Part shown: piece by piece, positions 5,501 to 52,395 of the stretch
Position numbering within the stretch: the first letter of the stretch is position 1
Layout of the letters: every line of letters starts with the position of its first letter
NCBI GenBank assembly: GCA_022449345.1
Contig: JAKURL010000004.1
Location: 19,981 to 83,980 of the forward strand
Direction: 5' to 3'
Length of the DNA stretch: 64,000 nucleotides
From: Candidatus Thalassarchaeum sp.
GTDB taxonomy: Archaea; Thermoplasmatota; Poseidoniia; Poseidoniales; Thalassarchaeaceae
Program-made: the position numbers and the translations under genes
The notes under the pieces: generated by a model
What the model was told of the DNA's origin: nothing
What the model saw: the letters and a program-made list of their open reading frames with translations, nothing else
Database searches by the model: none

Positions 5501-5721
5501 TTGTATTGCAGAGGCAACGCCGAGATGGCGTGGGTGCGGAAGTTTACGATGATTACGATTATTCTGGCTACGAAGAGCCTGAGCCGAGTCCATTATCAGT
5601 ACCTCCACCACCACCTGGAATGGCTCCTCCATTGCCACCAGAAGGGCTACCTGCTGGTTGGACTTTGGAACAATGGAATTACTATGGTGAAGAGTATCTT
5701 CGACGCCGAGAGCAGTCATAA
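2536..5721 (+). CDS. Giant surface protein with an N-terminal signal/TM, a thioredoxin-like WCGPC segment, multiple cadherin-like/Ig-like beta domains, a C-terminal TM anchor and a Pro-rich cytoplasmic tail
   Basis: 1061 aa. The hydrophobic N-terminus is FLVLTMSAIGYFAI. The motif VGAHWCGPCMG resembles the thioredoxin active site. A D/N/T-rich repeated beta-domain body contains VIDLGE/DDPADE cadherin-like acidic motifs. The C-terminal TM is LMAIGIMLSLALVLGLAIVL, followed by PPPPPGMAPPLPPEG. The true start is possibly the Met at 2611. Confidence 0.7.
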   Translation: MYKGIGFSPKIMVLALRVKKLSSVSMTFLVLTMSAIGYFAIEEQSAEREELHAKDMPRFATSPGHSVFGEYVGAHWCGPCMGSASPSLVNLKNSNSEDFTYVSFFEGASTGWPSDGPVNRQNHIMANSGGYPTFAFSDETSGSCYKVGSAGTNYYDADFSTGGCMHADASDFSMEMGVSLDSAGDTVTTSLEITYLGANDITVYVYGAITEKLGAEAYDDGSRPHHVWREWLLSDENEFTEVTLTPNQAETLTWDKPLNTVRAGGGNTQWENFWPIFALMDGDYSTYNEVYAAIDLDMGPLIDIGIVDFEARNANGNTGFVAGDILDLEVNIANNGAEEYNDGGGIDIYHLSGGQEILLGGISINQLSVGGTQSYSTTFDTSDITLAPSGTSSFRARISGMVGDRVPTNDYQDDLALHDMPPVPNRPVAVAESSVERGTAIQFESTALPNDLVDDMSTMSAELQYSIHGTGSWDDTWITSIDMVGSGGNSRYIHTITPPMTSQSGFYDIRIQWTDAGGQKSDWEVTENAFELRNAMPRILQAGDEGYGGVPTVKVDTVEAVSIVGLVSDAETPHSELIIDSNAYQFISFDPETLEISVQFDEIFYDSHGNSVSQGIFITVGDGEDFSSGTLMFNVIENGQPRWSGVPTQAFDEGGSASLILTEFLSDTDDNGNPVPANTLSLSIVSISDESLMTAEIYSQTLNVAAVDDDSYGMAEIVIRASDGVKESDTVITFHINNINDAPVIDLGEYINPIIQTGDRLNINVIDLVTDVDDPADEIWITVTTFVPGAVQYNPISGLATMSWDEAGEEMVTVTAEDRHGASSAAIMTVNVVDDLPLLWVDATGYGDLVVNMDTTEYDSNPSVTIANAGSLELSEIEVRWSVCNSITGICNDFGISHNFGPFIVLANSGEGLKVGDYVTLSVNALDSNGFDRSTQEQFKAYATEPVDVILEESEDEGNQGKSSLSVMTTGLMAIGIMLSLALVLGLAIVLQRQRRDGVGAEVYDDYDYSGYEEPEPSPLSVPPPPPGMAPPLPPEGLPAGWTLEQWNYYGEEYLRRREQS

Positions 5722-20343: not shown

Positions 20344-21789
20344 CTAGAGCAGTGCGGCGACTCTTTCGGGCTGGGTCAGGTAGATCAGCAGCCCCAATCC
20401 GGCGAACATCATCATCCAAGCACCAGTTGCTTTGACAATTCCAGTCGACCTACGAAGGAAACCAATCATTGCTTGACGGCCCATTCCTACTAGGCCCGTA
20501 ACTAGAACCATCAACATTGTAACCGACAGTATAAGTCCTCCAAGTCCAGCAACAAATGCCCCTTCTCCAACAACAGTTAACCATGCGACGAATGGGAATA
20601 CTGCTGCTGCTGTACAGTCTACGGAAGCCGCTGAATATCCAATTCCCCAGAGGTACATATTTCTCCGAGGAGTGAAAATCTCGTCAGTCTCTCTTGTCTG
20701 ATATTTGTCCAAAATTCGCTGAACTCCTGCCAATAGGTGGCTGGTCCAGCCTAGTAGCATTAATCCACCCAAGATAAGGAGAAGCCAAGCGATTGCAATC
20801 GCAATTTTGTGAAGAACTCCTGATAGGCTGATTACTTCACTAAGTCCGAAGATAATTATTCCAACTATACCAAAAAAGGTTAGTTGACCTAGAGCAGCAA
20901 ATCCACCTACCTCAAATGAGTTAGGCATCTTTCCACTTAATTTTCCTGATTGGCGTAATTCGTCTTCCCTCATGCCCAGACTCAGATAATAGGTTATGTA
21001 GGAAGGCAATACTGGGAAAGCACAAGGCGAGAAGTAAACCAAAATGCCAAGGAATAAACCAATGATGAAAACGCCCGATACTGAACGATCGGTCTTTTTT
21101 ATTCCAATCCTTAAATCTTCAGCCTCGCCTAAATTTGCTGACTCTATAGCATCATCAAAGGCCTTCCATCCATCTAACGGAGTCCCTGTATTTTCCTTAG
21201 CAACTACAAAGCCTTGGTGATCGATAACTAAGGCTAGCGGGATTGCCTGAGCTGAGTAATACTCTACAATATCTCCTCGACCTCCATCATCCAGCAGAAT
21301 CACATCGTTTCCTCCATTGACTATTGGCCATGGCATGTGGCGGTCGGACTCAGGGTCGCCGAAAGTTGAGTTAATTTGGTCAAATGAATCTACTTGATAC
21401 CAAGTAGCAATTGATACCACAATTATTGGATAAGGGCCTTCGAGATTTTCCCATTCGGCTAGATTTTGGTCGATGTATCCCTGAACGTAATGGCAGTTCG
21501 CACAGTCTATTGACATGAAATCAAGAATTATCACATTACCGCGAAGGCTGCTCAATTGTATTGTGCCATCTTCTGCGGTGTAAAGCTCGTCAATACCATC
21601 GCGATTCATCGATGGGGCAATCCAATCGGGGGCCTCAGTAATCTCATCCGTAGTCCCATAAATCGATGAGGTAAGTCCGAATAAAGAGAGCGAAGAATAA
21701 CCGATTATACAGAACAGAACTACCCCTATTCCGAATGCTTTCCAGGTGTCTGATTCTTTCAAGACACCAAAGTCCAAACTGGTCTGCAT
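20344..21789 (-). CDS. Thiol:disulfide oxidoreductase: a TlpA/ResA-like thioredoxin domain (CANC) fused to a CcdA/DsbD transmembrane electron-transfer domain
   Basis: 481 aa. The thioredoxin-like segment has FMSIDCANCHY. The DsbD/CcdA-type TM domain has the FSPCAFPVLPSY cysteine motif. Confidence 0.7.
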   Translation of the reverse strand: MQTSLDFGVLKESDTWKAFGIGVVLFCIIGYSSLSLFGLTSSIYGTTDEITEAPDWIAPSMNRDGIDELYTAEDGTIQLSSLRGNVIILDFMSIDCANCHYVQGYIDQNLAEWENLEGPYPIIVVSIATWYQVDSFDQINSTFGDPESDRHMPWPIVNGGNDVILLDDGGRGDIVEYYSAQAIPLALVIDHQGFVVAKENTGTPLDGWKAFDDAIESANLGEAEDLRIGIKKTDRSVSGVFIIGLFLGILVYFSPCAFPVLPSYITYYLSLGMREDELRQSGKLSGKMPNSFEVGGFAALGQLTFFGIVGIIIFGLSEVISLSGVLHKIAIAIAWLLLILGGLMLLGWTSHLLAGVQRILDKYQTRETDEIFTPRRNMYLWGIGYSAASVDCTAAAVFPFVAWLTVVGEGAFVAGLGGLILSVTMLMVLVTGLVGMGRQAMIGFLRRSTGIVKATGAWMMMFAGLGLLIYLTQPERVAALL

Positions 21790-23738: not shown

Positions 23739-24341
23739 GTGCTTCGCATAGGCTTGGTCATGCTTCAGGGTGCTCGCCATACACACATGGCAGCACTTCA
23801 TGTGGCGGCTGAGCAATCCGGAATTGAAATCGAAATACACGAATTACGCAAAGCTGTAGACCTAGTGAATGCTCAGCCGCATGCAATTGTTTTCCCTGGA
23901 GGCGAATCTACTACCATGCGGCTTACTGGCAACGACCCTGCTTCCAGTCTACTGCCAGCCTTGTTTGACTGGATTCGTGAAGACAGTGCTCGCCCCGTGC
24001 TTGGGACCTGCGCTGGAGCAATTCTACTGTGTGATCCTCAAGACGGCGGCGACCGCCTCGTCGCCGCCGAAATCGACCGCAATGCCTACGGCCGCCAAGC
24101 CGATTCTTTCCAGAGTGCGCTGGATGCCAAAATCTTGGATCGACAATTCCCAGGTGTTTTCATTCGCGCGCCAAGATTCACCAGCGTCGGTGATTCAGTC
24201 GAGGTTGTTGTAACACATGATTCCGAAGTTGTCGGAGTCAAGCATGGAAATCGACTAGCCCTTACATTCCACCCAGAATTATCTGAAGATTCTGGATTCC
24301 ACGAATGGCTTTTGCAGACTGCGAAAGAGGTGACTGCGTGA
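23739..24341 (+). CDS. pdxT: Pyridoxal 5'-phosphate synthase glutaminase subunit PdxT (class I glutamine amidotransferase)
   Basis: It aligns along its full length with PdxT: RIGLVMLQGA, PGGESTTM, GTCAG (catalytic Cys), RNAYGRQ, GVFIRAP, FHPEL. The probable start is the GTG at 23739; the listed ORF start at 23490 would overlap serC. Confidence 0.85.
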   Translation: MLRIGLVMLQGARHTHMAALHVAAEQSGIEIEIHELRKAVDLVNAQPHAIVFPGGESTTMRLTGNDPASSLLPALFDWIREDSARPVLGTCAGAILLCDPQDGGDRLVAAEIDRNAYGRQADSFQSALDAKILDRQFPGVFIRAPRFTSVGDSVEVVVTHDSEVVGVKHGNRLALTFHPELSEDSGFHEWLLQTAKEVTA

Positions 24342-25480
24342 CATTTTCGGTTCGACTTCCAAACATCCCAGAGCTACCAGAAGCAGCCGTTGCAGACGAT
24401 ACAGAGGGTTGTATCCAATGCCAGATGGGTTCGAAACTTGTCCTTTTCATCACCGGTCACTGCCATTGGATGTGTGATTACTGTCCGCTGTCAGAAAACC
24501 GCCGTGAAATTGACTGGATGTACGCTAACGAACGCCGAGTCGAGATTGGCGATTGGCAGGCTGTAATCGAAGAGGCTCGAGCGATGAATGCAACCGGGGC
24601 TGGAATTACCGGTGGAGATCCGGTCATGGCCCGAGAGAGGGTGCTTGAGGCCTGTAAGATTCTCAAGTCTGAATTCGGTGATGGCTTCCATTTACACATG
24701 TACACAAGCATACCGTTCAAGGAAGAATGGGCCAGTGAATTTGCAGATGCTGGATTGGATGAAATCCGCTTCCACTTCCTCGATTTAGAGACTGAAAAAT
24801 ACGTCGAAACAATGGCGGCTTGCGTCGAATCTGGGATGCTAACCGGTGTTGAGATCCCATGCGAACCCGACAAGGAAGAGATGCTGATGGAATTGCTTGA
24901 GACGATGCGTGAGATGCCCGTTCAATTCTTCAATCTAAATGAGTTGGAGATTACTGTCGGAAATCATGACAATATGGAGGTCCGTGGATTCAACCTTTCA
25001 GATGAAATCACCGCAGGAGCCGCAGGTTCCGCTGAATTAGCAATTCGAATGAGAGACCGAGTAATGGCTGCTTCAATCGGTGCACCAGATCTTGAAGATG
25101 GCATTGTACGCGAACCCTACCCTTACCATCTCAAGTTCTGCACTGCGACATACAAGGATAGCGGACAGTTACGCCGCCGCTTCCTTCGCCGTGGTGAACA
25201 TACTATTTCTCCTCACGAAATCCTAACTGAGGATGGCACTCTTCTCTTCGGGGCTATTGAGTGTGGCGAGGAAGCCTCAATAGATTGGATGGAGGAAATA
25301 AACACCGAAACAGGTCTCCCTCGTAGGTTCATGTTGTATGATAATGAAAACCAGCGAATCGAACTTCCCTTGTCGATGGCTGAGGAATTGGTTGGAGAAA
25401 TCGATGCACCAATTTCTCTAGTGGAAGTGCATCCAACCCACGAGAGATTGGAGATGACCGTGGTTTACCTAAATCGTTGA
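24338..25480 (+). CDS. Radical SAM enzyme, PflA-like/COG2108-like family
   Basis: The CX3CX2C cluster motif is HCHWMCDYCP, followed by a TIM-barrel-like alpha/beta region. The GTG at 24338 overlaps the pdxT stop as GTGA. Alternative starts are 24305 or the ATG at 24425. Confidence 0.7.
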   Translation: MTFSVRLPNIPELPEAAVADDTEGCIQCQMGSKLVLFITGHCHWMCDYCPLSENRREIDWMYANERRVEIGDWQAVIEEARAMNATGAGITGGDPVMARERVLEACKILKSEFGDGFHLHMYTSIPFKEEWASEFADAGLDEIRFHFLDLETEKYVETMAACVESGMLTGVEIPCEPDKEEMLMELLETMREMPVQFFNLNELEITVGNHDNMEVRGFNLSDEITAGAAGSAELAIRMRDRVMAASIGAPDLEDGIVREPYPYHLKFCTATYKDSGQLRRRFLRRGEHTISPHEILTEDGTLLFGAIECGEEASIDWMEEINTETGLPRRFMLYDNENQRIELPLSMAEELVGEIDAPISLVEVHPTHERLEMTVVYLNR

Positions 25481-25511: not shown

Positions 25512-27353
25512 ATGCCGGTACGGACGTACAATGCCGAGGCGACTGGGGTCGACCCTTTCCGTCGCCTCTCCGCATCTCAGGTCAATCTCTGGAAGTCCTG
25601 TCCTCGGCAGTGGTATTACGCCTATGAAGTGAGATTGAAAGGTCCTATGCCGCCGCATATTATTCGCGGAAATGCGGCTGAGGAATGCATCTGTAGAGTT
25701 CTCAGGGATTCTCCATCCTTAATCACTCCAGAAGCGCCTGATACTCTCATATCGCCATTGAATGAGGACGGTGCTCCTGATTGGGAAGATGAACAAAAAT
25801 GGATGGCTGCTAGGTTGTCGGCTAGGCCGTCAGAAGATTGGCCGACAAGCCGCGAGGCATTGATGGAGTGGGCAATAGCTCGAGTTGAAGTCCACTTTGA
25901 CCGATGTTGGGATGCAGCAGTGGAGGATTGGCAGGCGACCCAAAACAGAGCCGGTTCACTGGAAGACATCGAGCCAGAAGAATGTCGAGAAATGATACTC
26001 GAAGGGATCAGAATGCACCTAGATGAAGTCGAGAAGTGCTTGGAGGCCAATGGTGGTCCTAATCTTAAATCTTGGAGGGCAGGCGAAGCTCGTGATGAAA
26101 TTCCAGCACCTGATGGTTTCCCACTACATTGGAAAACTCCTCATCCATCAGCACAGAGTCATGGTAAGATGACTTGGTGTGAGGCTTGGGAACTTGCCAG
26201 ACCTTGGTTTGTAGATCCCGATTCAAAGTCATTCAGCCAAACGACTTGCATTCCGGAAGGTTGGTTTCAAGGAGAATACGACTTGGTATATCGCTGGGAT
26301 GGTTCGATCAATATCGTTGACATCAAGGCTAGCATAGGGAAGGGCGACCGCTCATTCAGTTATATGGAACAATTACGCCTCTATGCTTGGCTCTGGTGGA
26401 AATCTCACGCACGTTCAGAGCAAGTTTCTTCTCTGGAGATTTGGTATCTCGGTACCGGCACTGTAAAGTCAATCGATCTTCCACAAATTTCAGAGCTGGA
26501 AGCATACGAATCCGAGCTTGGAGAATTGTATCAACTTCTACGAGCGGGTAATCCTCCAATCGACAAATGCCCGCCAAACCCTGCTCCTCTGAGACATTTT
26601 GACGCCGGAGGCGTTCCAGCCCAGCAGCACATCGATTCAGACCCTCTAGCACGCTGCAAGGGATGTGATTACAGAGGATTCTGTCCCAAAGGTAACCACG
26701 ACCTAGAGCTCACTGAAGAGAGGCGAATAGAACGCCTTGGTCACGCATGGCCAATCACTCCACTAGGTGAAATTGAGCCTAGAGTCGAGGCAATTGGCGA
26801 GGTGATTGGTCTATCTGGTCCAGAATTGCTTCAAGATGGTTCCATCAAGGTCCATTTCAGATTGCAAGATGGATACGACCGTGCTAAGGTACAGCCTGCA
26901 TACAATGGGGGTCCAAAGAGGATCAGCCGGTCGATTACAGAAGGAGTCCGAGTAAAGATCTCAAACGCCTTACCTAGCCTATGGAGGGGTGAATTACAAC
27001 TCAATCTCGATGCAGATTCTGAGGTTTCATTGGCGGAAGAAGATGAAATCGCCCCTGTGGTTGATGTCGAGACGAGAGTAAGCATAGTTGCCCGTGTTTG
27101 GTCGATAGATTCCTTTCCCGACGGGATTGGTAATACTAGATGGGCTGCAACCCTAGTGGATGCGACCGGTTCGGCTCAGATTGTTGCATTCAAGCAATTC
27201 ATTCCATTGAGTGCTGCAGCAGTCAAGCGCGGAGACACAATAGCAATCCTAAACGGTGAGAAAGGAGAATGGGGGGGTCGCCCTCAGGTCAAGTGTGGAC
27301 CGGGTAGCAAAGTTGTGATTGTATCCGATGCAGAGGATTCGCCTGAATTCTAA
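25512..27353 (+). CDS. Cas4/RecB-family PD-(D/E)XK nuclease with a four-Cys iron-sulfur cluster and a C-terminal OB-fold-like region
   Basis: 613 aa. The N-terminal Cys motif SASQVNLWKSCPRQWYY is Cas4/AddB-like. The nuclease motifs are YDLVYRWDGSINIVDIKAS (D..D-x-K) and MEQLRLYAWL (QxxxY). A three-Cys motif sits at CKGCDYRGFCPKG. The last 170 aa look like tandem OB folds (VARVWSIDSFPDG...QIVAFKQ). Confidence 0.7.
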   Translation: MPVRTYNAEATGVDPFRRLSASQVNLWKSCPRQWYYAYEVRLKGPMPPHIIRGNAAEECICRVLRDSPSLITPEAPDTLISPLNEDGAPDWEDEQKWMAARLSARPSEDWPTSREALMEWAIARVEVHFDRCWDAAVEDWQATQNRAGSLEDIEPEECREMILEGIRMHLDEVEKCLEANGGPNLKSWRAGEARDEIPAPDGFPLHWKTPHPSAQSHGKMTWCEAWELARPWFVDPDSKSFSQTTCIPEGWFQGEYDLVYRWDGSINIVDIKASIGKGDRSFSYMEQLRLYAWLWWKSHARSEQVSSLEIWYLGTGTVKSIDLPQISELEAYESELGELYQLLRAGNPPIDKCPPNPAPLRHFDAGGVPAQQHIDSDPLARCKGCDYRGFCPKGNHDLELTEERRIERLGHAWPITPLGEIEPRVEAIGEVIGLSGPELLQDGSIKVHFRLQDGYDRAKVQPAYNGGPKRISRSITEGVRVKISNALPSLWRGELQLNLDADSEVSLAEEDEIAPVVDVETRVSIVARVWSIDSFPDGIGNTRWAATLVDATGSAQIVAFKQFIPLSAAAVKRGDTIAILNGEKGEWGGRPQVKCGPGSKVVIVSDAEDSPEF

Positions 27354-27362
27354 CTTATTTAG

Positions 27363-27448
27363 TGGCGCCGAGAGAGGGATTTGAACCCCCGCGTCCAAGG
27401 GACAGTGGATTTCGAATCCACCGCAATACCGGGCTATGCGATCTCGGC
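27363..27448 (-). tRNA. tRNA-Ser (anticodon CGA), long variable arm, CCA encoded
   Basis: The reverse complement GCCGAGA...GGUGGAUUCGAAAUCCAC...GUCCCUUGGAC...GGGGGUUCAAAUCCCUC UCUCGGC G CCA folds as a cloverleaf with a 7-nt anticodon loop UUCGAAA. Confidence 0.85.
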
Positions 27449-27503
27449 AGCAAGCCGACCACCTGCGATTTGGTCATAAGTCTGACTCGCTCCCCTTGGG
27501 TTG

Positions 27504-27707
27504 ATGCGAATCACGGTTATTCACGACGATGACGAGCCTAGTATTGTTGAGAGTGATGAACCGATTAGCATCACTGAGGTGTTGGATAGACTAAACATCG
27601 CTAGTTCAACAGTCCTTGCTGTTCTAGGCGAAACCATTGTCCCTCATTCATCTACAATTACCGATGATATCGAGATCGAGTTAATCGTCGTCTCAAGCGG
27701 CGGTTAG
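27504..27707 (+). CDS. ThiS/MoaD-like beta-grasp sulfur-carrier/SAMP-like protein ending in Gly-Gly
   Basis: 67 aa, MRITVIHDDDE...GETIVPHSSTITDDIEIELIVVSSGG. The ...IVP...D.IE...GG pattern is the ThiS signature. Confidence 0.55.
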   Translation: MRITVIHDDDEPSIVESDEPISITEVLDRLNIASSTVLAVLGETIVPHSSTITDDIEIELIVVSSGG

Positions 27708-28448: not shown

Positions 28449-29201
28449 TCAGACATAGAAATCATCAGCTTCGGCAGACATTCCTAGATGGTCTTCGATT
28501 GAACCGCTCACATCGATGCTCGAGAGCAATTTCCTAGCGGTTTCCTCTGTGGTGTCTAAGTCGAGGTCGAGGGGTAAACCTAGTGCCTCCTCAATCCAAC
28601 GAGCGAGGCGATCTGCCGCTCTAACATCTGCAGAAGCACCGACGGTGTCAGCCACCAAGGCCACAGCGGGAACTCCGTGAATAGGTGAGAGAGATACTAG
28701 AAGTCCCGCAACGCCAATCATACCTGCTTCTGGTTGTGATTTGCTAACCTCGATGTCATTTGCTTTGAGATTACTTCTTACCTTTGCATTAGCGCAAATT
28801 ACATGGATTGCATTTTCTTCAACTTCGGTAGCTAATCCTGCTAATACCAGAAATTGTGGAGTAGAGGTTGCCATTCCTAGAATCGTCTCTGCAACCTCGT
28901 GCTGCCCTGCTGCTGTCATAGGTTGTAGGTCTCCTCCAACAGTTACTACATACCTACCATCAGGCAACATTACCCGATGCACCAACATCGATGGCGGAAC
29001 GAGCAAGCCGTCTTTGTCTAGGGTAGAATGAGGTGGCATATCCGGGTGCAAAATTCTAGCGACAAGAGTTGAGGGGTGCTTTTCGACAAGGCCATCGACA
29101 ACCAATTTACCGACATTACCGACTCCCGGAACTGCTTCTAGTAGGGCCACGTGCTCAGGCAGTGAATCTCCAATCAACCAATGTACACCTGCGCGACTCA
29201 C
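28449..29201 (-). CDS. PAC2-family (COG1938) archaeal protein, proteasome-assembly-chaperone-like
   Basis: 250 aa. The N-terminus is LPEHVALLEAVPGVGNVGKLVVDGL. It sits in the conserved position downstream of nop10. Confidence 0.6.
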   Translation of the reverse strand: MSRAGVHWLIGDSLPEHVALLEAVPGVGNVGKLVVDGLVEKHPSTLVARILHPDMPPHSTLDKDGLLVPPSMLVHRVMLPDGRYVVTVGGDLQPMTAAGQHEVAETILGMATSTPQFLVLAGLATEVEENAIHVICANAKVRSNLKANDIEVSKSQPEAGMIGVAGLLVSLSPIHGVPAVALVADTVGASADVRAADRLARWIEEALGLPLDLDLDTTEETARKLLSSIDVSGSIEDHLGMSAEADDFYV

Positions 29202-29410
29202 TCGTCCTCCTCCTTACGAGGAGTCGGCAATGCTTCGATCCACTCATCACTTCCAGCATCCTCTCGCTGTCGACGGCGTGCTCCTTGAGCATCCTGTGGC
29301 GAGAATTTCAGGGGCACGGCGGAAGTCATCTTTCCGCCGCACTCCTTGCATTCCTCAGCAAGTCCATACTCGCCACAAACGGTACACCGCTGCAATCTCG
29401 TCCGAGCCAT
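29198..29410 (-). CDS. nop10: H/ACA ribonucleoprotein subunit Nop10
   Basis: RLQRCTVCGEYGLAEECKECGGKMTSAVPLKFSPQD is the Nop10 zinc ribbon plus linker. Its stop overlaps the PAC2 start. Confidence 0.8.
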   Translation of the reverse strand: MARTRLQRCTVCGEYGLAEECKECGGKMTSAVPLKFSPQDAQGARRRQREDAGSDEWIEALPTPRKEEDE

Positions 29411-29475
29411 CCCGATTCCTCAGAAGTCTAGCCCCTTTCAGAGGTCTTTGAAGATGTAGCATACAAATAGCGACT

Positions 29476-30264
29476 TTACATACGTTCGATATCGATTGAG
29501 CCTTCTACCGAAGTGATGGATTCTGTGGCGGCTTGCTGAGCCTCTTCCCACATTCTCTCTGCTGTCTCGTAATCTGGTGCCCTGATGTCAATCCTATACT
29601 CTGGCGCACCGTCATAATGGCAGGTCAGGGTCGCGTCTTCCTCTCCCTCAGCAACCGCCTCTGCAGACAGTAATGCATCCCTAATGGCGTACACTCCTTC
29701 TGCACCCCAAACCTCTATGTTGAACTGTCCACGAATTTCTACAAATGGAGGGATAATGTTCTCCACTGCCAATTCGACAACAGTGGTCATCCAATCTCCG
29801 GTGAAGCCATTGTCAGATAGTGCAGTTTCTGAAATTGCACACTCTTCCAAAGCTCCGTACAAGGTTCCAAAGATTTCAGTCATTTCGTCAGAAATCTCCG
29901 CTTTTTTCACCTCATCCCATCCTGTTCTTTCGGCAACAACCCCCATTATCTGGTTAGCGCGTTGCTCGTTTTTCCAAGTCTGAATAGTGTCTCTGCGGCG
30001 TTCTTCTGAGACACTTTTGATAGAAAGGTCAACACGCTCACGATCTTTCTTGATACCGATTACCTTTGCAACAACTCGTTGGCCAACTCGAAGATGGTTT
30101 CTGATATTCTTAACCCAGCCGGAAGCGACTTCGCCAACGAAGACAAATCCTTCCCGTGAGCCATATCCATCTAGCCGAAGATAGGCTCCATTTTCTCGAA
30201 CGTTGCTTACGGTGCAAATGAGTAGTTCGCCTTCTTCAGGCCAAAGTTCTTCATCATAACTCAT
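29476..30264 (-). CDS. eif2a: Translation initiation factor 2 alpha subunit (aIF2-alpha)
   Basis: 262 aa. An S1 domain (GELLICTVSNVRENGAYLRLDGY...VGEVASGW) is followed by the helical and alpha/beta domains. Confidence 0.9.
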   Translation of the reverse strand: MSYDEELWPEEGELLICTVSNVRENGAYLRLDGYGSREGFVFVGEVASGWVKNIRNHLRVGQRVVAKVIGIKKDRERVDLSIKSVSEERRRDTIQTWKNEQRANQIMGVVAERTGWDEVKKAEISDEMTEIFGTLYGALEECAISETALSDNGFTGDWMTTVVELAVENIIPPFVEIRGQFNIEVWGAEGVYAIRDALLSAEAVAEGEEDATLTCHYDGAPEYRIDIRAPDYETAERMWEEAQQAATESITSVEGSIDIERM

Positions 30265-30280
30265 TATTACACAGTCCCCT

Positions 30281-30454
30281 TCACTCGAGGACGTCTACGA
30301 TTGTGCTTCCAACAAGCTCGGCTTTACCACCTGCTGGGCGGGCCAAAGTGGAACCGCAAATTGAGCAGGAAATCTGGGTTGACGCCCTTTCGAAAATGAT
30401 AGCTTCGTGTCCGCAGTCACGGCAGTTTACTCGTAGAAATTTTGCATCTCCCAT
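30281..30454 (-). CDS. rps27e: Ribosomal protein S27e
   Basis: MGDAKFLRVNCRDCGHEAIIFERASTQISCSICGSTLARPAGGKAEL is the S27e C4 zinc finger. The listed ORF has an N-terminal extension that is probably not translated. Confidence 0.85.
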   Translation of the reverse strand: MGDAKFLRVNCRDCGHEAIIFERASTQISCSICGSTLARPAGGKAELVGSTIVDVLE

Positions 30455-30458
30455 GAAA

Positions 30459-30740
30459 TCACCTCTCAACGAGCTCGAACTTCCTTGCACGCTGCGAGGC
30501 CGGCTGGTGAGCCTTTCCGGTCTCCGAGCAACGGTAGAGTAGGTTGACGCGCTTGGTGGGCTTCTCACCGGATGGCTTTGGACGAGGGAAACCTCGGTAT
30601 CCAGATGTAACCTTACGGAATCTTCGCTGACCCCACTTTAGTTCAGAAGCGCGTCGCTTCTTGACACGCTCGACGGTGTGCTCAGTGTGCTTACCAGCCG
30701 ATGGGCTGTAGCGCATTATCTTACGTGGCATCTTTACCAT
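30459..30740 (-). CDS. rpl44e: Ribosomal protein L44e
   Basis: MVKMPRKIMRYSPSAGKHTEHTVERVKK...YRCSETGKAHQ matches L44e. Confidence 0.85.
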   Translation of the reverse strand: MVKMPRKIMRYSPSAGKHTEHTVERVKKRRASELKWGQRRFRKVTSGYRGFPRPKPSGEKPTKRVNLLYRCSETGKAHQPASQRARKFELVER

Positions 30741-30790
30741 GACAGAGCACCTCAACGTCTTACGACGACGCGCCCACCTATGACCCATAT

Positions 30791-31495
30791 TTGATTGTGT
30801 CGAGAGAGAGGGAGCCCCCTTTAGGGGCTAAGTATCTCATTTTCGGCAAATATTTAGGTAGTCAATTCAAAGAATATCCTAGTCTGCCACAGGTCATGGT
30901 CTTTTGGCTGAATCAGGCCCTCCTGAGTTTCACCCTATTGGTTGCTGCATTCTCGACGTGGAGAATGGGTCCATCATTCAAACGAAGCAAATTCGCTCCA
31001 CCCATTGCAGTACTAGGTCTTGCAGGGTTGATTTTCTTGCCAGAACAACCACTATATTTTGAGGCGGATTACTATAGATGCGAAATCATTTCTTTTTGCA
31101 ATGATGATGGAAGAGAATCTTATCTCAGAGTTGTAACTTGGTCTCTCATTTCTATTTCTACTGCCTTCATTGGTTGTCACGCTATAATCAGAGGTTCTCG
31201 AATATATTCAGAACATAACTTACCACTCCTGACGTTCGGATGGATAATTCTCGGAATTTCTTGGTGGTCAATCGCCCAGAGTCCTTGGTTCGTTGAGGCT
31301 TATACTCGCCTCGATGTGCTTGCATGGATGGTTGCCTACCTGTTTGGTATCGCAGTTACCGTTTACCTTTTCTTCCACATAATCCGAATTACCGAGAGGT
31401 TAAGCCCAAAGGATCCGCCAATTGAACCTCTAGACGAGAAAGAAAGGCGTTTGGTTACTGAAATGATTAGAAGAAATTTAGGGGGTGGGGATTGA
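30791..31495 (+). CDS. Integral membrane protein of unknown function, in a lower-GC segment
   Basis: 234 aa with about 6 hydrophobic helices and AT-rich codon usage relative to its neighbours. Confidence 0.5.
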   Translation: MIVSREREPPLGAKYLIFGKYLGSQFKEYPSLPQVMVFWLNQALLSFTLLVAAFSTWRMGPSFKRSKFAPPIAVLGLAGLIFLPEQPLYFEADYYRCEIISFCNDDGRESYLRVVTWSLISISTAFIGCHAIIRGSRIYSEHNLPLLTFGWIILGISWWSIAQSPWFVEAYTRLDVLAWMVAYLFGIAVTVYLFFHIIRITERLSPKDPPIEPLDEKERRLVTEMIRRNLGGGD

Positions 31496-33767: not shown

Positions 33768-35288
33768 TTGGTTGTCAACGTGCAAGGCAAGCGTTTGCCG
33801 ACAATCGAGGGCTTTGCCCGAATTGAAATGACGGAGGATGTAATCTCTTCTTGCAGACTTTCTGAATCTCGCTTTGTATTGGGAACGATATCCGGTAATC
33901 TGCTAATTTACGAGGCGGATACCCCTCTAGGAAGAGCTGAATTGGAATCTGCAATCATATCTGTAATCGCCTCAGGTGAGAATGTAATTGCGGCATCATC
34001 GACTGGACAGATTCAGGCATTTCACGGTCAGCCGTTGTGGGTTACCGAGTTTGAGTCCGGTATTGAGAATCTGGCACCCCTAGGTGATGCAATCTGTTTA
34101 TGCGATGCCTCTGGAATGCTTGTAGTAATCAGTCCAGAAGGTGAGACTCTCAGTAGTCAATCGCATGGCGATATCACTCAACTGACTGGCTCAGATGATG
34201 GCTCGAGCATTGCAATTGCGATGACTGACGGGACTCTGCGGATTTGTAGTAAATCTGGAGAAATATTGCAAGAGTCGAGTGCAGATAGCGACGATGTAGA
34301 AACTATCTCGCAGATTTGCTTTCGTCCAGGTGGCGTTCTTCTGGTTTGTCGTGATTCCTTAGGGATGACACTTGACGATCGACCTGAAAACCGTCTAGAG
34401 TGTTGGCATAGTGTTCGCGGGCTGCTTCACACGAACGAATTACCAGCCTCTGCAAGCAGTATTCTTGCCACCGACACCGGTTCAATTGTCGGATGTCAAA
34501 ATGGCGCCTTGTTGAGGTTCAATATCGGTGAAGAGGTGGAGGAATTGGCTACTGTTGATAATTCAATTTCATCAATTATCGAATGGGGCGATGATGTGAT
34601 TATTGGAACTTGGTTCCACACTCTGAGGATCTCTTCCGATGGTTCGATTATTTGGTCTCATGAACATGAGGGCCTAGTTAGCCAGATACTGCCAATAAGT
34701 CCAGATCTAATCGCAGTAATCGGGCGTTCTCCATCGGGTAAAAGCCCTGCATCGGTTGTATTGCTTGACCCCGACTCAGAACCAATCGTTCCAGAGGTTG
34801 AGTCGTTCGATTATGAATTCAGTCAATCTGATTCAAGTGAATTCGCTGGCGGATTGAGTGATGAGGAAATCGCGCAAGCCGGAGCACCACCAGAAGTTTC
34901 AATTGAAACTGAGGAACTGATGGATGCTTTGGGCGAGGAATTGGAATTTGTCAGTGAAGAGGAAGTAGTCTCGGAGGCCGATTTATTGCAAGACCTATCC
35001 GCATCTGCAAGAGCGATTAATCTGCCCCCAATTGCAGATGCGGGTGAAGATATAACCATCTCGGCCGATGAAGATGGTACCGCAACTATTCTTCTCGATG
35101 GTTCAAGGTCCTATGACCCAGATGGAAAGATTGAGAATTATGCTTGGCAGGATTTCAGGGGCAATGTAATTGGCGACTCAGCTCAAGTCAGAGTTCGACT
35201 TCAATTAGGCACCCACCCATTCGAATTGACCGTAGTCGACGATAAGGGAGCAGCGACCAAAGCGATGGTGACGGTTAGGATTCAGTAG
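33768..35288 (+). CDS. PQQ-like/WD40-like beta-propeller protein with an acidic linker and a C-terminal PKD domain
   Basis: 506 aa. It has repeated propeller blades, a roughly 60-aa D/E-rich linker, and a C-terminal PKD-like segment (...DGSRSYDPDGKIENYAWQ...). Confidence 0.6.
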   Translation: MVVNVQGKRLPTIEGFARIEMTEDVISSCRLSESRFVLGTISGNLLIYEADTPLGRAELESAIISVIASGENVIAASSTGQIQAFHGQPLWVTEFESGIENLAPLGDAICLCDASGMLVVISPEGETLSSQSHGDITQLTGSDDGSSIAIAMTDGTLRICSKSGEILQESSADSDDVETISQICFRPGGVLLVCRDSLGMTLDDRPENRLECWHSVRGLLHTNELPASASSILATDTGSIVGCQNGALLRFNIGEEVEELATVDNSISSIIEWGDDVIIGTWFHTLRISSDGSIIWSHEHEGLVSQILPISPDLIAVIGRSPSGKSPASVVLLDPDSEPIVPEVESFDYEFSQSDSSEFAGGLSDEEIAQAGAPPEVSIETEELMDALGEELEFVSEEEVVSEADLLQDLSASARAINLPPIADAGEDITISADEDGTATILLDGSRSYDPDGKIENYAWQDFRGNVIGDSAQVRVRLQLGTHPFELTVVDDKGAATKAMVTVRIQ

Positions 35289-38340: not shown

Positions 38341-39555
38341 TCAGCGACGTTTTCTTCGCTGTTTTGCCTTGCGTCGAGCAAGATCCTTCTTTTCGTCTTC
38401 ATTTCCTATTCGCTCAATCGTCCAGTCCTGCATCTTTGTCGATGCAGAATACACTAGGCTCAGAACTACTAGCCCAGTAGCGGCTGGAATTGCGATTACA
38501 ATCCACAGGCTGAGAATACCCGTCGATCCCGATGAAGGTGGCGAATATTGATTCAGATAGCCACGGCTAGTGACTATCCAACCGGTATCAGTTCCAGTGG
38601 CCCAAGTTCCTACGATTCGGTCGCTGGAAACATTGAGGTCATCAATATCTGAGTGCTCAAGCCAAGGGAAAGAGGAATTGAGGCTGACATCGTGCTCTAT
38701 TAGGCTCGTAGGAGTAGTGGCAATAAGTGTGCGATCGCCTTGCTGCGCCTCTATACCTACGAAGTAAACATCTAAATCCGGAAGTCTGCTAATACTCGGA
38801 ATTGAAGCGGATAAATCCTCTGGATTCAACTCAATATGGGCAATCACCTGATTGTCAGCAACTGCGACACAGTAGGGAGTTTCTCCACTCGGGCATTCCA
38901 CTCCTGTCCAAGGATATCCTGTTCCTCCAACCCAAGTGAAAGTGTGGTCTCTTTGGATAATTCCAATCCCCTCAACCGCTGCTGCAACGACGCACATCAT
39001 GATAGTGTCATGACAATCCATAGCCATAATCGAACTTGTCCCAGAAGCCGAAAGAGAATGTAACTCAGCACCACCATCCGCGGTAACTCTCAATCGCCAA
39101 ATCTGCCCTTCTTCGGTGCCGACATAAGCCCAAGAGCCAGCGGTATTCCAAGCCACAGAAGTCATCTTCGCATAGCCGAGGTCCACATCGGATGCTGCCA
39201 TTTCTAGCGATTGATCCTGCTTAGCGTAACGAAGTACAACTCCATGTTCACCGACAATTAGCGCTGTTTGCCCAGCAGGGTGGAAGTCCGCATCAAGCAA
39301 TTCTTGAGATCCACTCCATGCCATCTCAACCTGTTGGGTAGGGTCCTTTGCATCCAAGACTCGGACATATCCGTCTTGACCGTAGACAACTGCGGTGTTT
39401 CCCTCTGAATCTACTTCAACTCCATTCAATCCGAGGTCTTCATCTGAGAGTGAGATGCCCTTGCCGAGTTCTACCGCAGAGACTGCCAATACGCTATGGG
39501 AGGCCAACATCACTACGATGAGAGATGCGAATAGTCCGCGTGTAACCTCGCCCAT
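38341..39555 (-). CDS. Secreted beta-propeller protein with a C-terminal TM anchor and a short basic cytoplasmic tail
   Basis: It has a signal peptide (LIVVMLASHSVLAVSA), a repetitive beta-rich body, a C-terminal TM (LWIVIAIPAATGLVVLSLVY), and the tail ARRKAKQRRKRR. Confidence 0.6.
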   Translation of the reverse strand: MGEVTRGLFASLIVVMLASHSVLAVSAVELGKGISLSDEDLGLNGVEVDSEGNTAVVYGQDGYVRVLDAKDPTQQVEMAWSGSQELLDADFHPAGQTALIVGEHGVVLRYAKQDQSLEMAASDVDLGYAKMTSVAWNTAGSWAYVGTEEGQIWRLRVTADGGAELHSLSASGTSSIMAMDCHDTIMMCVVAAAVEGIGIIQRDHTFTWVGGTGYPWTGVECPSGETPYCVAVADNQVIAHIELNPEDLSASIPSISRLPDLDVYFVGIEAQQGDRTLIATTPTSLIEHDVSLNSSFPWLEHSDIDDLNVSSDRIVGTWATGTDTGWIVTSRGYLNQYSPPSSGSTGILSLWIVIAIPAATGLVVLSLVYSASTKMQDWTIERIGNEDEKKDLARRKAKQRRKRR

Positions 39556-50760: not shown

Positions 50761-52395
50761 ATGGCCGTTGAGTCTTGGGCTGAAAAGAGTCGAATCCTCG
50801 CTGCCGCGGGGCTCATCGTAATGGGTAGAGATGCCCAAACGAAGATAGAGAAATTAGCAAATCTCTCACCCTTGATTGAAGCAGCAACTGCTAGCAGCAC
50901 TCGAGTATTGACAAGTCAAAGCATAGATGAGTTACTAACAATCGTGCCAACCGAGGAAACCATAACCGAAACCGATTCGCCAGTACAAACCAGTTCCCAA
51001 ACATTGCAAGCCACATTAGCAAGACCGGAAACTGGCGAAGTGATTGGAAGAACAATCGCTCCAATCACCAATAAAGAACCATCGCCTGCACCAAGGCCAC
51101 ACGGATTGGACCACTATCGTATGCAGGATTTTCCGATGCAAGCCGCCGATGTAGATGCTGAGATTGAGATTCACTTCGATATCACGGGTTTCTCTAGGAC
51201 TGAGGGTAAAATGACCGATATCCAATCTTTTTTCGCCGACCGATTGAAGCAAATTCGCAACTTACTCATCACCGGTGGGGCTCTCCCTCGTCGCCCAGTT
51301 AGCATAGCCGAGGCTTGGCGTAATCGACAGAGGCATACATCGAAAGATTACGAGATTACGCTGGTTGGCCTAGCCTCAGAATCTCGCAGGACTCGTTCAG
51401 GAAACTTAAGTTTCGTGCTAGAAGATGAAACTCAGAATATCCGATGTTCGCTTCGTCCACCATCTGAGGCGAGTCCGCTTCATCCTGCTTTAGACGGACT
51501 GATGAACGACGATGTTGTTGGGATTAGCGGACATTTCCTCCTCGGCGAGAGAAACCCTCTATTCATGGCTAGCAATATCCATCTCCCACCAATGAGACAA
51601 CACTCGAAGGCAACTGCAGGCGAGGACCGTGCCGTCTCAGCCGCCTTCCTATCAGACGTTCATGTTGGCTCCAAGACATTCTTGGGCCCTCAATGGGAGA
51701 AGATGATTAAATGGTTCAATACAGATCCGTTGGCTCGTACTGTGAAATATTTCGTTCTTAGCGGAGATGGAGTCGACGGTGTAGGGATATATCCTGGTCA
51801 GGAAAGACATCTAGCCATTACAGATCTATTTGCACAATATGGAGAACTAGCACGCCTCTTGGAAGGACTTCCGGATTGGGTCGATGTAGTCATTTTACCC
51901 GGTAATCACGACGCTGTACGTCCTGCTGAACCTCAACCTGCATTAGATCCAGAAGTGCAACAGGATTACTCAGATGCAGTCTTCGTTGGCAACCCATGTG
52001 AATTCAGCCTTCATGGAGTTCGAATCCTATCCTATCACGGCAAGAGTATCGATGATTTTGTTGCTGGGCTTCGATCAGTAACCTACTCCACACCCGAGAT
52101 GGCGATGCGGGCTATGTTGGAGAGAAGGCATCTAGCACCATCTTGGGGCGGTAAGACTCCTTTATCGCCAGAACCGGAGGATAGGATGGTGATTCGTCAA
52201 ATTCCGGATATTTTTGTCACTGGACACGTTCATGGCCACTATGTTGGGAATCACAAAGGCACAACAATCGTTCATTCCTCAACATGGCAGGACCAAACCG
52301 ATTATCAGAGAATGCTCGGTTTCCAACCGAAGCCATGCATTCTGACTGTGATAAATTTGCATACTCACGAATCGGCGAGCATACCCTTTGCTTGA
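50761..52395 (+). CDS. polB: DNA polymerase II (PolD) small subunit DP1
   Basis: 544 aa. An N-terminal region and an OB fold are followed by a calcineurin-like phosphoesterase with the motifs FLSDVHVGS, SGDGVDG, GNHD and GHVH. Confidence 0.8.
   Translation: MAVESWAEKSRILAAAGLIVMGRDAQTKIEKLANLSPLIEAATASSTRVLTSQSIDELLTIVPTEETITETDSPVQTSSQTLQATLARPETGEVIGRTIAPITNKEPSPAPRPHGLDHYRMQDFPMQAADVDAEIEIHFDITGFSRTEGKMTDIQSFFADRLKQIRNLLITGGALPRRPVSIAEAWRNRQRHTSKDYEITLVGLASESRRTRSGNLSFVLEDETQNIRCSLRPPSEASPLHPALDGLMNDDVVGISGHFLLGERNPLFMASNIHLPPMRQHSKATAGEDRAVSAAFLSDVHVGSKTFLGPQWEKMIKWFNTDPLARTVKYFVLSGDGVDGVGIYPGQERHLAITDLFAQYGELARLLEGLPDWVDVVILPGNHDAVRPAEPQPALDPEVQQDYSDAVFVGNPCEFSLHGVRILSYHGKSIDDFVAGLRSVTYSTPEMAMRAMLERRHLAPSWGGKTPLSPEPEDRMVIRQIPDIFVTGHVHGHYVGNHKGTTIVHSSTWQDQTDYQRMLGFQPKPCILTVINLHTHESASIPFA

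What the first reader, a model, noticed from the sequence alone, without database searches (positions are those of the whole stretch)
25512..27353. A Cas4/RecB-type iron-sulfur nuclease fused to OB-fold-like C-terminal domains
The protein has the Cas4/AddB hallmarks. It has an N-terminal Cys in the motif SCPRQWYY, the nuclease motifs D..IVDIK and QLRLY, and three more Cys in CKGCDYRGFCPKG, which together would ligate a [4Fe-4S] cluster. The nuclease core carries a long E/D-rich insertion. The last 170 aa read like one or two OB folds, comparable to RPA or anticodon-binding OB domains. No CRISPR array or other cas gene is present in the 64 kb, so this is a solo Cas4-like enzyme with an unusual nucleic-acid-binding extension. 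It may be a DNA end-processing factor.
Basis: partly seen in the sequence, partly recalled or inferred. Interest (0 to 1): 0.65.

Follow-up and report, generated by a model that had tools for sequence, protein, structure and literature searches.

The report
Iron-sulfur nuclease fused to RPA-like domains
This is a real, conserved gene of marine Group II archaea that joins a Cas4/Dna2-type DNA-cutting domain to two single-stranded-DNA-binding domains and a bacterial-SSB-like tail; nobody appears to have studied the family, but it is built from known parts.

Summary
ORF 25512..27353 (+) encodes a 613-aa protein with four parts:
- a PD-(D/E)XK nuclease of the Cas4/RecB/AddB/Dna2 class (Pfam PF12705, E = 4e-17), with every catalytic residue and a C...CX2CX5C cysteine set conserved;
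- a folded helical insertion of about 180 aa;
- two C-terminal OB folds that resemble archaeal RPA/SSB;
- an acidic tail ending in Phe.

It is not a CRISPR Cas4. It scores below the Cas4 model cut-off, and the window holds no cas gene or repeat array. It is not Dna2 either, because it has no helicase domain.

The family is confined to Poseidoniia (marine Group II archaea and relatives). Databases call it only "PD-(D/E)XK nuclease family protein" or "hypothetical". It sits in a syntenic housekeeping block next to PAC2, Nop10, aIF2-alpha, S27e and L44e.

New here: the family has two paralogues, A and B. In 10 of 11 other lineages they are adjacent, in the order ABCE1, A, B. The window's clade has only B at this locus, and its B always carries an SSB-tip-like tail, [ED][DE][VL]PxF.

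Most likely function (inferred): a housekeeping nuclease that needs a free single-stranded DNA end, with its own RPA-like module. I rate it a new variant of a known kind, of moderate interest.

The parts
25512..27353 (+). Complete gene, 613 aa plus stop: 'B-type' nuclease-OB-OB protein
   Evidence: ORF. N-terminus MPV is conserved across the family. 489 homologues.
25563..25706 (+). N-terminal helices, residues 18-65, with the RLSASQ motif, the first cluster cysteine C30 (SCPRQW) and conserved G53/E57
   Evidence: C30 is present in 149/151 B-type members. Helices at 21-29, 31-39 and 49-65. Weak Cas4 N-terminal matches.
25707..26246 (+). Family-specific helical insertion, residues 66-245, acidic, between the first Cys and the catalytic core
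   Evidence: pLDDT mostly 90-98, long helices at 114-142 and 155-178. 37 D/E against 17 K/R. Solved relatives of only about 265 aa (e.g. ACE1) align to the 402-aa domain at TM 0.35 normalised to the query. That the insertion itself has no counterpart in them is inferred from this size difference.
26247..26546 (+). PD-(D/E)XK catalytic core, residues 246-345: GEYD (E255, D257), IVDIK (D270, K272), QLRLY (Q287, Y291)
   Evidence: Pfam PF12705, E = 4e-17. Residues invariant in 317/317 members. Foldseek hits to ACE1, Dna2, AdnAB, Cas4, AddB, MGME1 and Exo5.
26655..26684 (+). C382-x2-C385-x5-C391, which with C30 forms the presumed [4Fe-4S] ligand set
   Evidence: Invariant in B-type. In A-type, 17/161 members lost all four Cys together. 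Metal binding itself was not tested.
26724..27041 (+). OB fold 1, residues 405-510, with the invariant W491-R-G motif
   Evidence: Beta-strand pattern. Residues 472-513 align to Sulfolobus SSB 60-101, with W491 opposite SSB F79. NCBIfam SSB models at 5.6e-5. Tandem-OB Foldseek hits.
27072..27326 (+). OB fold 2, residues 521-605, with canonical b1-b3/helix/b4-b5 order
   Evidence: Pfam PF01336, 1.4e-4, residues 523-595. NCBIfam PRK07218 RPA at 5.9e-7. Family profile against P. abyssi RPA at 1.8e-7. DSSP.
27327..27350 (+). Acidic C-terminal tail SDAEDSPEF, residues 605-613; clade consensus [SA][ED][DE][VL]PxF-COOH
   Evidence: In 123/123 members of the window's clade the last residue is F or Y, and position -5 is D/E in 122/123. 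The tail is absent from all 161 A-type members and from the B-type proteins read in six loci that keep A. The L091/P0121 and L096 clades, which also keep A, carry a related ...LPxWK/...TDWHL ending.

Best explanation
The gene encodes a housekeeping DNA nuclease specific to Poseidoniia. A PD-(D/E)XK domain of the Cas4/AddB/Dna2/Exo5 type, stabilised by an iron-sulfur cluster, is fused in one chain to a tandem RPA/SSB-like OB-fold module.

Proposed mechanism:
1. The two OB folds bind single-stranded DNA, such as a 5' flap, a resected or unwound end, or a gap. This holds or feeds the strand into the nuclease active site.
2. The fused OB module therefore does in cis what RPA does in trans for Dna2 and Exo5: it targets the nuclease to ssDNA and sets its polarity.
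3. The acidic tail ending in Phe behaves like the C-terminal tip of bacterial SSB or phage T7 gp2.5. It either occupies the protein's own OB cleft when no DNA is bound, or it recruits partner proteins.
4. In most Poseidoniia the enzyme is probably a heterodimer of two paralogues (A and B) encoded side by side. In the window's clade, B acts without an adjacent A, probably alone or as a homo-oligomer.

Shown here: the domain architecture, the conserved catalytic and Cys residues, the folds, the phyletic distribution, the synteny and the paralogue pairing.

Inferred only: Fe-S binding, ssDNA specificity, polarity, oligomeric state, the role of the tail, and the cellular pathway (replication-flap or break-end processing).
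For: Nuclease identity:
- PF12705 at 4e-17.
- The N-terminal model has pLDDT 89 and pTM 0.90. Its best solved matches are all end-processing DNases of one class: ACE1 (Cas4 family) 7e-4, Dna2 3e-3, then AdnAB, Cas4-Cas1, AddB, MGME1 and Exo5.
- It also matches phage RecB/COG2887/Cas4-like exonucleases at 2e-6.
- The family profile hits the Dna2 nuclease at 7.8e-3.

An active enzyme:
- E255, D257, D270, K272, Q287 and Y291 are invariant in 317/317 members of both paralogues.

The Cys set acts as one unit:
- C30/C382/C385/C391 are invariant in B-type and were lost all together in 17 A-type members.

ssDNA-binding module:
- Tandem-OB structural hits at about 1e-9, P. abyssi RPA at 1.8e-7 and Sulfolobus SSB at 3e-3.
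- W491 is invariant in the 37-sequence A1 alignment and lies in a WRG motif shared with the A-type paralogue; it aligns with SSB F79.

Housekeeping status:
- 375 GTDB species genomes carry a relative.
- The position next to the SAMP-like gene, PAC2, Nop10, aIF2-alpha, S27e and L44e is conserved across the class.
- There is no viral copy and no defence or cas neighbours.

Pairing:
- A directly precedes B with a 16-188 nt gap in the five loci measured. This order holds in 10 distinct lineages.

Tail:
-.
Against: No biochemical evidence exists. No characterised orthologue was found, and the literature searches returned nothing on this fusion.

Similarity to every solved nuclease is weak: E of 1e-3 or worse, and TM 0.35-0.5.

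Genomic context gives no direct link to replication or repair genes. The conserved neighbours are translation or proteasome related (ABCE1, LSIN cluster, PAC2). MutS/MutL lie nearby only in some Poseidoniaceae loci.

The relative placement of the nuclease and OB domains is uncertain; the full-length model has pTM 0.60. No helicase partner was identified. The resemblance of the tail to SSB tips rests on my own knowledge, not on a test.
Confidence: 0.6

Rival explanations
1. It is a bona fide Cas4 that works in CRISPR spacer acquisition, encoded away from its cas locus.
For: The Cys pattern C...CX2CX5C and the catalytic motifs match Cas4. There are weak Cas4 hits: PADLOC Cas4 at 4.4e-6 over the core only, and PDB Cas4 chains at E 0.2-1.
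Against: TIGR00372 scores 14.4 bits against a cut-off of 65, and PF01930 is not hit. The window has no cas gene and no repeat array. The protein is three times the size of Cas4 and has extra domains. The gene sits at a fixed housekeeping position in hundreds of genomes.
Confidence: 0.02
2. It is an antiviral or anti-plasmid defence nuclease, comparable to Argonaute-associated ACE1 or Druantia DruK, that degrades invading DNA.
For: The best solved structural match is ACE1. There are weak DruK hits at 4e-5. Phage and defence systems are rich in PF12705 nucleases.
Against: There is no pAgo, Druantia or other defence gene nearby. It is a near-universal, syntenic core gene across a whole archaeal class rather than a patchy island gene. 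Composition is uniform around it.
Confidence: 0.1
3. It acts on RNA, for example in rRNA/tRNA processing or mRNA decay, as suggested by its neighbours.
For: The conserved flanks are ABCE1/RLI upstream in most lineages, and the SAMP-like gene, PAC2, Nop10, aIF2-alpha, S27e and L44e downstream. A tRNA-Ser gene lies 10 nt after the stop. The Pfam OB model hit (PF01336) also covers tRNA-synthetase anticodon-binding domains.
Against: All structural relatives of the nuclease domain are DNases. The OB folds match RPA/SSB best. In archaea the LSIN cluster is itself known to sit next to DNA replication genes (PMC2643942), so this neighbourhood does not argue specifically for RNA.
Confidence: 0.1
4. It is mainly a non-catalytic ssDNA-binding protein (an RPA substitute) whose nuclease-like domain is only structural.
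For: It has two RPA-like OB folds plus an SSB-like acidic tail. No canonical RPA gene lies in the 64-kb window.
Against: All catalytic residues are invariant in 317 sequences of both paralogues down to about 24% identity. That is not expected for a dead domain. The window is only a small part of the genome, so RPA may lie elsewhere.
Confidence: 0.05

Closest known systems
Dna2 nuclease domain working with RPA (eukaryotes; structure 5EAN/5EAX)
   Same: Both have a PD-(D/E)XK nuclease core with a four-Cys Fe-S motif. The family profile hits Dna2 residues 303-426 and Foldseek gives 3e-3. Functionally, Dna2 is a nuclease that needs a free ssDNA end and works together with OB-fold ssDNA binding; that part is established knowledge about Dna2/RPA (e.g. 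PMC8586334, listed).
   Different: This protein has no SF1B helicase domain. Its OB folds are fused in the same chain instead of being supplied by RPA. It has a family-specific helical insertion of about 180 aa. Identity is only about 14%. It is not an orthologue.
Cas4 family, including Argonaute-associated ACE1 (9IAB) and SSO0001 (4IC1)
   Same: The C...CX2CX5C cysteine pattern, the D/ExK and QxxxY motifs, and the fold are shared.
   Different: It scores below the Cas4 model cut-off. There is no CRISPR/cas or pAgo context. It is 613 aa against about 200-270 aa. It carries two OB folds and a tail.
AddB / AdnA-AdnB nuclease domains of bacterial end-resection machines
   Same: The PF12705 nuclease fold is shared. 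Two related nuclease-bearing subunits encoded side by side (A and B) recall the two-nuclease AddAB/AdnAB design.
   Different: There are no helicase or ATPase modules in either paralogue. A heterodimer is only inferred from gene adjacency.
Archaeal RPA / crenarchaeal SSB OB folds (P. abyssi RPA 8AA9; S. solfataricus SSB 1O7I)
   Same: Sequence-level similarity of the OB folds. An aromatic residue sits at the position of an SSB stacking residue. Like Sulfolobus and bacterial SSBs, it has an acidic C-terminal tail (my knowledge).
   Different: Scores are far below the RPA/SSB equivalog cut-offs, 28.8 against 447 bits. No zinc-ribbon, winged-helix or ARCD domain was reported by the Pfam or NCBIfam scans. 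The OB folds are attached to a nuclease.
Exo5 and MGME1 (ssDNA-end nucleases of eukaryotes and mitochondria)
   Same: Same nuclease class, recovered by Foldseek.
   Different: The matches are weak (E 0.2-0.6), and those proteins have no OB folds.

Membership tests
Pfam PF12705 PDDEXK_1 (Cas4/RecB/AddB-type PD-(D/E)XK nucleases) | Profile score above the curated gathering threshold | tested here: met
   63.4 bits against a cut-off of 22, E = 4e-17.
Pfam PF12705 PDDEXK_1 (Cas4/RecB/AddB-type PD-(D/E)XK nucleases) | Catalytic D...(D/E)xK plus QxxxY motifs conserved | tested here: met
   E255, D257, D270, K272, Q287 and Y291 are invariant in 317/317 full-length members.
Pfam PF12705 PDDEXK_1 (Cas4/RecB/AddB-type PD-(D/E)XK nucleases) | Fold matches solved members | tested here: met
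   Foldseek hits to ACE1, Dna2, AdnAB, Cas4, AddB and Exo5, and to phage RecB-family exonucleases at 2e-6.
Fe-S cluster nucleases (Cas4/AddB/Dna2/Exo5 subgroup) | Four Cys in the pattern C...CX2CX5C flanking the core | tested here: met
   C30, C382, C385 and C391 are present in 149/151 B-type members. Seventeen A-type members lost all four together.
Fe-S cluster nucleases (Cas4/AddB/Dna2/Exo5 subgroup) | Actual binding of a [4Fe-4S] cluster | not testable with these tools
   Needs UV-vis or EPR on purified protein.
Cas4 sensu stricto (TIGR00372 / PF01930, CRISPR adaptation) | Score above the Cas4 model cut-off | tested here: not met
   TIGR00372 scores 14.4 bits against a cut-off of 65. PF01930 is absent from the Pfam hits.
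Cas4 sensu stricto (TIGR00372 / PF01930, CRISPR adaptation) | Association with cas1/cas2 and a CRISPR array | tested here: not met
   No cas domain in about 49 window ORFs. No array. None in the related loci read.
Dna2 | SF1B helicase domain C-terminal to the nuclease | tested here: not met
   No helicase or P-loop family hit. The C-terminus is two OB folds.
Dna2 | Nuclease-domain homology | tested here: inconclusive
   Profile E = 7.8e-3. Foldseek E = 3e-3, 14% identity.
NucS/EndoMS | Any sequence or fold match | tested here: not met
   No NucS family or structure among the hits.
RPA/SSB-type OB folds | Five-stranded OB barrel, in tandem | tested here: met
   DSSP pattern. Tandem-OB proteins are the top Foldseek hits at about 1e-9.
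RPA/SSB-type OB folds | Sequence relationship to archaeal RPA/SSB | tested here: met
   The family profile hits P. abyssi RPA at 1.8e-7 and Sulfolobus SSB at 3e-3.
RPA/SSB-type OB folds | Orthology to a named RPA/SSB (NCBIfam equivalog cut-off) | tested here: not met
   PRK07218 scores 28.8 against 447 bits. PRK06461 scores 23.2 against 235 bits.
RPA/SSB-type OB folds | ssDNA binding | not testable with these tools
   Needs EMSA or fluorescence anisotropy.
SSB-type C-terminal tip (bacterial SSB DDDIPF, T7 gp2.5) | Acidic residues followed by a hydrophobic residue, Pro and a C-terminal aromatic residue | tested here: met
   123/123 members of the window's clade end in F or Y. Position -5 is D/E in 122/123. 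Pro is at -3 or -2 in most. The comparison motif itself is recalled from memory.
SSB-type C-terminal tip (bacterial SSB DDDIPF, T7 gp2.5) | The tail mediates partner binding or auto-inhibition | not testable with these tools
   Needs pull-downs or tail-deletion biochemistry.

The most novel reading that the evidence does not exclude
The A/B nuclease-OB-OB proteins are a previously unrecognised ssDNA-end-processing machine of Poseidoniia that works without a helicase. In this reading a dimer carries two Fe-S nucleases and four RPA-like OB folds, the same number of DNA-binding OB folds as an RPA trimer. It would carry out the flap or break-end resection that Dna2-RPA, HerA-NurA or AddAB perform elsewhere. 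In the window's clade a single subunit would have taken over and would use an SSB-like C-terminal tip to dock onto replication or repair partners.
Probability: 0.25. Interest if true: 0.75.

Novelty: new variant of a known kind. Interest (0 to 1): 0.55.

Why it matters
Marine Group II archaea are uncultured and are among the most abundant planktonic archaea. Their DNA-maintenance machinery is known only from annotation.

This gene is a core, class-specific protein. It physically fuses two activities that must be brought together in trans in eukaryotes: a Dna2/Exo5-type Fe-S nuclease and RPA. That makes it a compact natural model for how ssDNA-binding OB folds direct an end-dependent nuclease.

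Three findings give concrete hypotheses that recombinant protein could test:
- the A/B paralogue pair, which may form a heterodimer;
- the loss of all four Cys together in some members;
- the convergent SSB-like tail.

If the protein turns out to be the main resection or flap nuclease of this lineage, it would fill a gap in archaeal repair pathways. Otherwise it is a well-defined new architecture within a known superfamily.

Tried and rejected
- The full-length model against the PDB returned only OB-fold proteins. To classify the nuclease I had to model residues 1-402 separately.
- The diverse alignment A2 was too divergent for the search for related loci, so I used A1 instead.
- A second homologue search with A2 gave almost the same list as the first.
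- The scan of viral contigs found no relative.
- Searching the window with the family profile found no second copy. No ABCE1 or A-type gene lies in the window or in the 80 closest loci.
- Six literature searches and two targeted readings found no description of a nuclease-RPA/OB fusion in Poseidoniia.
- I considered a functional link to the upstream radical SAM gene. It is adjacent in 77/80 loci, but I did not adopt the idea. The whole block is syntenic within that clade, and in other lineages ABCE1 and the A paralogue occupy that position instead.
- I considered replication linkage through the LSIN cluster. I kept it only as weak context, because PCNA, PriS and GINS are not adjacent here.
The A-type groups whose context I read all belong to other lineages.
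Full report
**Observation**

The window has an ORF at 25512..27353 on the + strand, 613 aa with an ATG start.
- SCPRQWYY (C30);
- GEYD...INIVDIK (E255, D257, D270, K272);
- QLRLY (Q287, Y291);
- CKGCDYRGFC (C382, C385, C391).

Pfam gives PDDEXK_1 (PF12705) at 63.4 bits against a gathering score of 22, E = 4e-17. It also gives a sub-threshold OB-fold hit, PF01336, at residues 523-595. NCBIfam gives weak archaeal RPA/SSB hits for residues 472-514 and 547-608. The Cas4 equivalog TIGR00372 scores only 14.4 bits against a cut-off of 65. The gene is not a chance ORF: 489 homologues were found, nearly all 611-616 aa.

**Organism and setting**

Named homologues come only from Candidatus Thalassarchaeaceae, Poseidoniaceae, Poseidoniales, Poseidoniia or Thermoplasmatota MAGs. 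A scan of one genome per GTDB species found 375 relatives. The 80 best were essentially all Poseidoniales, with one contig apparently mis-binned as Micrococcales.

The window is ordinary archaeal chromosome:
- aspartyl/lysyl-type tRNA synthetase, LonB, adenylosuccinate synthetase;
- the PolD small subunit, tRNA genes;
- the PAC2, Nop10, aIF2-alpha, S27e, L44e cluster.

Composition is flat across the window. No cas domain and no CRISPR-like repeat array is present.

An exhaustive HMMER search of 1.84 billion representative proteins found only 172 clusters at E <= 1e-3. All of them are family members or fragments. The family is therefore narrow and clearly separated from ordinary Cas4, AddB and RecB sequences.

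**Anatomy**

- A full-length AlphaFold model has mean pLDDT 77.6 and pTM 0.60. It shows an alpha/beta N-terminal domain followed by two beta-barrels, at residues 425-507 and 522-605.
- With that model, the best Foldseek matches in the PDB are tandem-OB proteins (HIN-200 domains, Teb1 AB, POT1, TEBP-alpha) at E about 1e-9.
- A profile of 25 diverse family members hits Pyrococcus abyssi RPA (1.8e-7), Sulfolobus SSB (3e-3), the Dna2 nuclease domain (7.8e-3) and Cas4 structures (0.2-1).
- Because the OB folds dominated the structural search, I modelled residues 1-402 separately with a mixed A/B alignment. That model has pLDDT 89.1 and pTM 0.90.
- Its best solved matches are the Argonaute-associated Cas4-family enzyme ACE1 (7e-4) and Dna2 (3e-3), followed by AdnA/AdnB, Cas4-Cas1, AddB, MGME1 and Exo5.
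- Among viral models it matches RecB-family/COG2887/Cas4-like phage exonucleases at 2e-6.
- The 'E/D-rich insertion', residues 66-245, is a confidently folded helical subdomain. It holds 37 acidic against 17 basic residues.

**Conservation**

I aligned 317 full-length members. E255, D257, D270, K272, Q287 and Y291 are invariant in all of them. The four cysteines are present in 149 of 151 B-type sequences. In the other paralogue, 17 of 161 sequences lack all four at once. That is the pattern expected if the four residues act together as one metal site.

In OB1 the motif W491-R-G is conserved in both paralogues. In the HMMER alignment to Sulfolobus SSB, W491 falls opposite F79. I recall F79 as a base-stacking residue; this was not verified here.

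**Two paralogues**

The family splits into two types:
- B, the window type: WFQGEYD, RPWFVDPD.
- A: WAAGELD, RPWVKDPR. It is about 24-29% identical to B.

I read the gene neighbourhood in eleven distinct lineages outside the window's clade:
- In ten of them A lies directly upstream of B on the same strand. The order is ABCE1/RLI, A, B, a 66-aa ThiS/SAMP2-like gene, then PAC2, Nop10, aIF2-alpha, S27e and L44e on the opposite strand. This holds for L082, L084, L085, L087, L089, L091, L093 (with a DsbB gene inserted), L096, L099 and L101.
- The A-B gap was measured in five of these loci and is 16-188 nt.
- One locus, L081, has A only.

In the 80 GTDB loci closest to the window, B is 54-87% identical to the window protein:
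- B is preceded by PdxT and a radical SAM gene in 77 of 80 loci.
- B is followed by the SAMP-like gene in 71 of 80 loci.
- No A lies within 6 kb.
- The 64-kb window holds no second copy.

Flanking proteins confirm that the A-B loci lie outside the window's clade. PAC2 is 32-55% identical to the window's PAC2 in those loci, against 59-89% within the clade. Whether the window's clade keeps an A copy elsewhere in the genome remains open.

**The tail**

All 123 B proteins of the window's clade end in an aromatic residue (F in 120, Y in 3). D/E is at position -5 in 122 of 123. A hydrophobic residue is at -4 and Pro is at -3 or -2. The consensus is [SA][ED][DE][VL]PxF.

The tail is absent from all 161 A-type proteins. 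It is also absent from the B proteins read in six loci that keep A: L082, L084, L085, L087 and L089, and L099. Two clades that keep A carry a related ending...LPxWK in the L091/P0121 clade and ...TDWHL in L096.

The motif closely resembles the C-terminal tip of bacterial SSB (DDDIPF) and the acidic, Phe-terminated tail of T7 gp2.5. This comparison is from my own knowledge. It is a lead, not a test.

**Interpretation**

The best-supported reading is a housekeeping nuclease that needs a free ssDNA end, of the Cas4/AddB/Dna2/Exo5 class, carrying its own RPA/SSB-like module. Every solved relative of the nuclease domain is a DNase that processes ssDNA ends or flaps. Dna2 and Exo5 are known to be directed by RPA in trans. 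Here the OB folds are fused in cis.

The side-by-side A and B genes both have intact active sites. This suggests a two-nuclease heterodimer in most Poseidoniia, loosely analogous to AddAB or AdnAB but without motors. In the window's clade, B presumably works without A.

These mechanistic steps are inferences. Only the architecture, conservation, folds, distribution and synteny are shown.

**Rivals**

- CRISPR Cas4 is essentially excluded: the score is below cut-off, there is no cas/CRISPR context, and size and architecture differ.
- A defence nuclease is unlikely. This is a syntenic core gene present across a class, with no defence neighbours and no viral copies.
- An RNA role is suggested only by translation-related neighbours. 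That same LSIN cluster is known to associate with replication genes in archaea (PMC2643942), and the folds point to DNA.
- A non-catalytic SSB role conflicts with the invariant catalytic residues.

**Novelty**

I found no paper describing this fusion. The Cas4 phylogenomics study does not mention OB-fold fusions, and the RPA evolution study yielded nothing on a nuclease fusion or on Poseidoniia in a term search. Databases label the proteins 'PD-(D/E)XK nuclease family protein' or 'hypothetical'.

All the building blocks are known kinds. The combination, the paralogue pair and the SSB-like tail are new as far as these tools show. I rate it a new variant of a known kind, with interest about 0.55.

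Noticed in passing
window 27363-27448 (-): A tRNA-Ser (anticodon CGA) gene lies on the opposite strand only 10 nt after the stop codon of the nuclease gene, between it and the small SAMP-like ORF.
   Followed up: partly
window 27501-27707 (+): A 68-aa ORF ending in ...VVSSGG looks like a ThiS/MoaD/SAMP2 ubiquitin-like protein. It is found next to the B gene in 71/80 close loci. It is also found in distant Poseidoniia loci, where precomputed Pfam gives weak ThiS/SAMP2 hits (L085, L096). Whether it is functionally linked to the nuclease is unknown.
   Followed up: partly
window 24305-25480 (+): A 391-aa radical SAM protein overlaps the end of PdxT and ends 31 nt before the nuclease start. It is adjacent in 77/80 loci of the window's clade. 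It matches no NCBIfam equivalog; the only hits are weak MoaA/PqqE-like matches. In other lineages ABCE1 and the A paralogue occupy this position instead.
   Followed up: partly
window 28449-30788 (-): An intact archaeal cluster of PAC2 (COG2047), Nop10, aIF2-alpha, S27e and L44e. This is the 'LSIN' cluster of Berthon et al. 2008, which usually sits next to PCNA, PriS and GINS. Here the gene beyond L44e is instead a 234-aa ORF (30791-31495) with no family hit; its translation looks hydrophobic.
   Followed up: partly
related loci (A-type proteins such as P0175, P0356-P0362, and L082 4135-5955): A subgroup of 17 of 161 A-type paralogues has lost all four cluster cysteines at once while keeping every catalytic residue. 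It would be a natural cluster-free variant for comparison.
   Followed up: partly
related loci (A-type proteins, e.g. P0164, L084 6001-7761): In the family alignment, 93 of 161 A-type members show only three of the four cluster cysteines; the position of C391 is a gap or another residue. P0164, for example, has ...CHWCSLALDGD with no third Cys downstream. This may be a real change of ligand set or an alignment artefact in a variable loop.
   Followed up: no
L100 2379-4236: In one metagenomic contig the B gene is called as two pieces, 515 and 112 aa. This is either a frameshifted pseudogene or an assembly error.
   Followed up: no
L025 (NZLD01000096.1): A contig carrying a typical Poseidoniales copy of this locus is filed under a 'Micrococcales bacterium' MAG. 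It is probably a binning contaminant.
   Followed up: no
P0201, P0205, P0218, P0247 (L095 270-1604): A few shorter proteins (400-480 aa), rich in Ala, Arg and Gly and from unnamed metagenomic sources, align to the nuclease domain plus a single OB-like domain. They may be an outlying branch of the architecture outside Poseidoniia. In L095 the neighbour is a methyltransferase.
   Followed up: partly
L084, L089, L101 upstream regions: In Poseidoniaceae-type loci, bacterial-type MutS (and MutL in L101) lie about 3-4 kb upstream of the ABCE1, A, B block on the opposite strand.
   Followed up: no
window 2536-5721 (+), 56099-59080 (+), 33768-35288 (+): Three large proteins (1061, 993 and 506 aa), two of them with PKD domains and one with a weak Ig-like domain hit. 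Several sizeable ORFs have no significant family hit: 20344-21789 and 38341-39555.
   Followed up: no
window 50761-52395 (+): The PolD small subunit (DP1; DNA_pol_E_B plus Metallophos domains) is the only clear replication gene in the window. It lies 23 kb from the nuclease gene.
   Followed up: no
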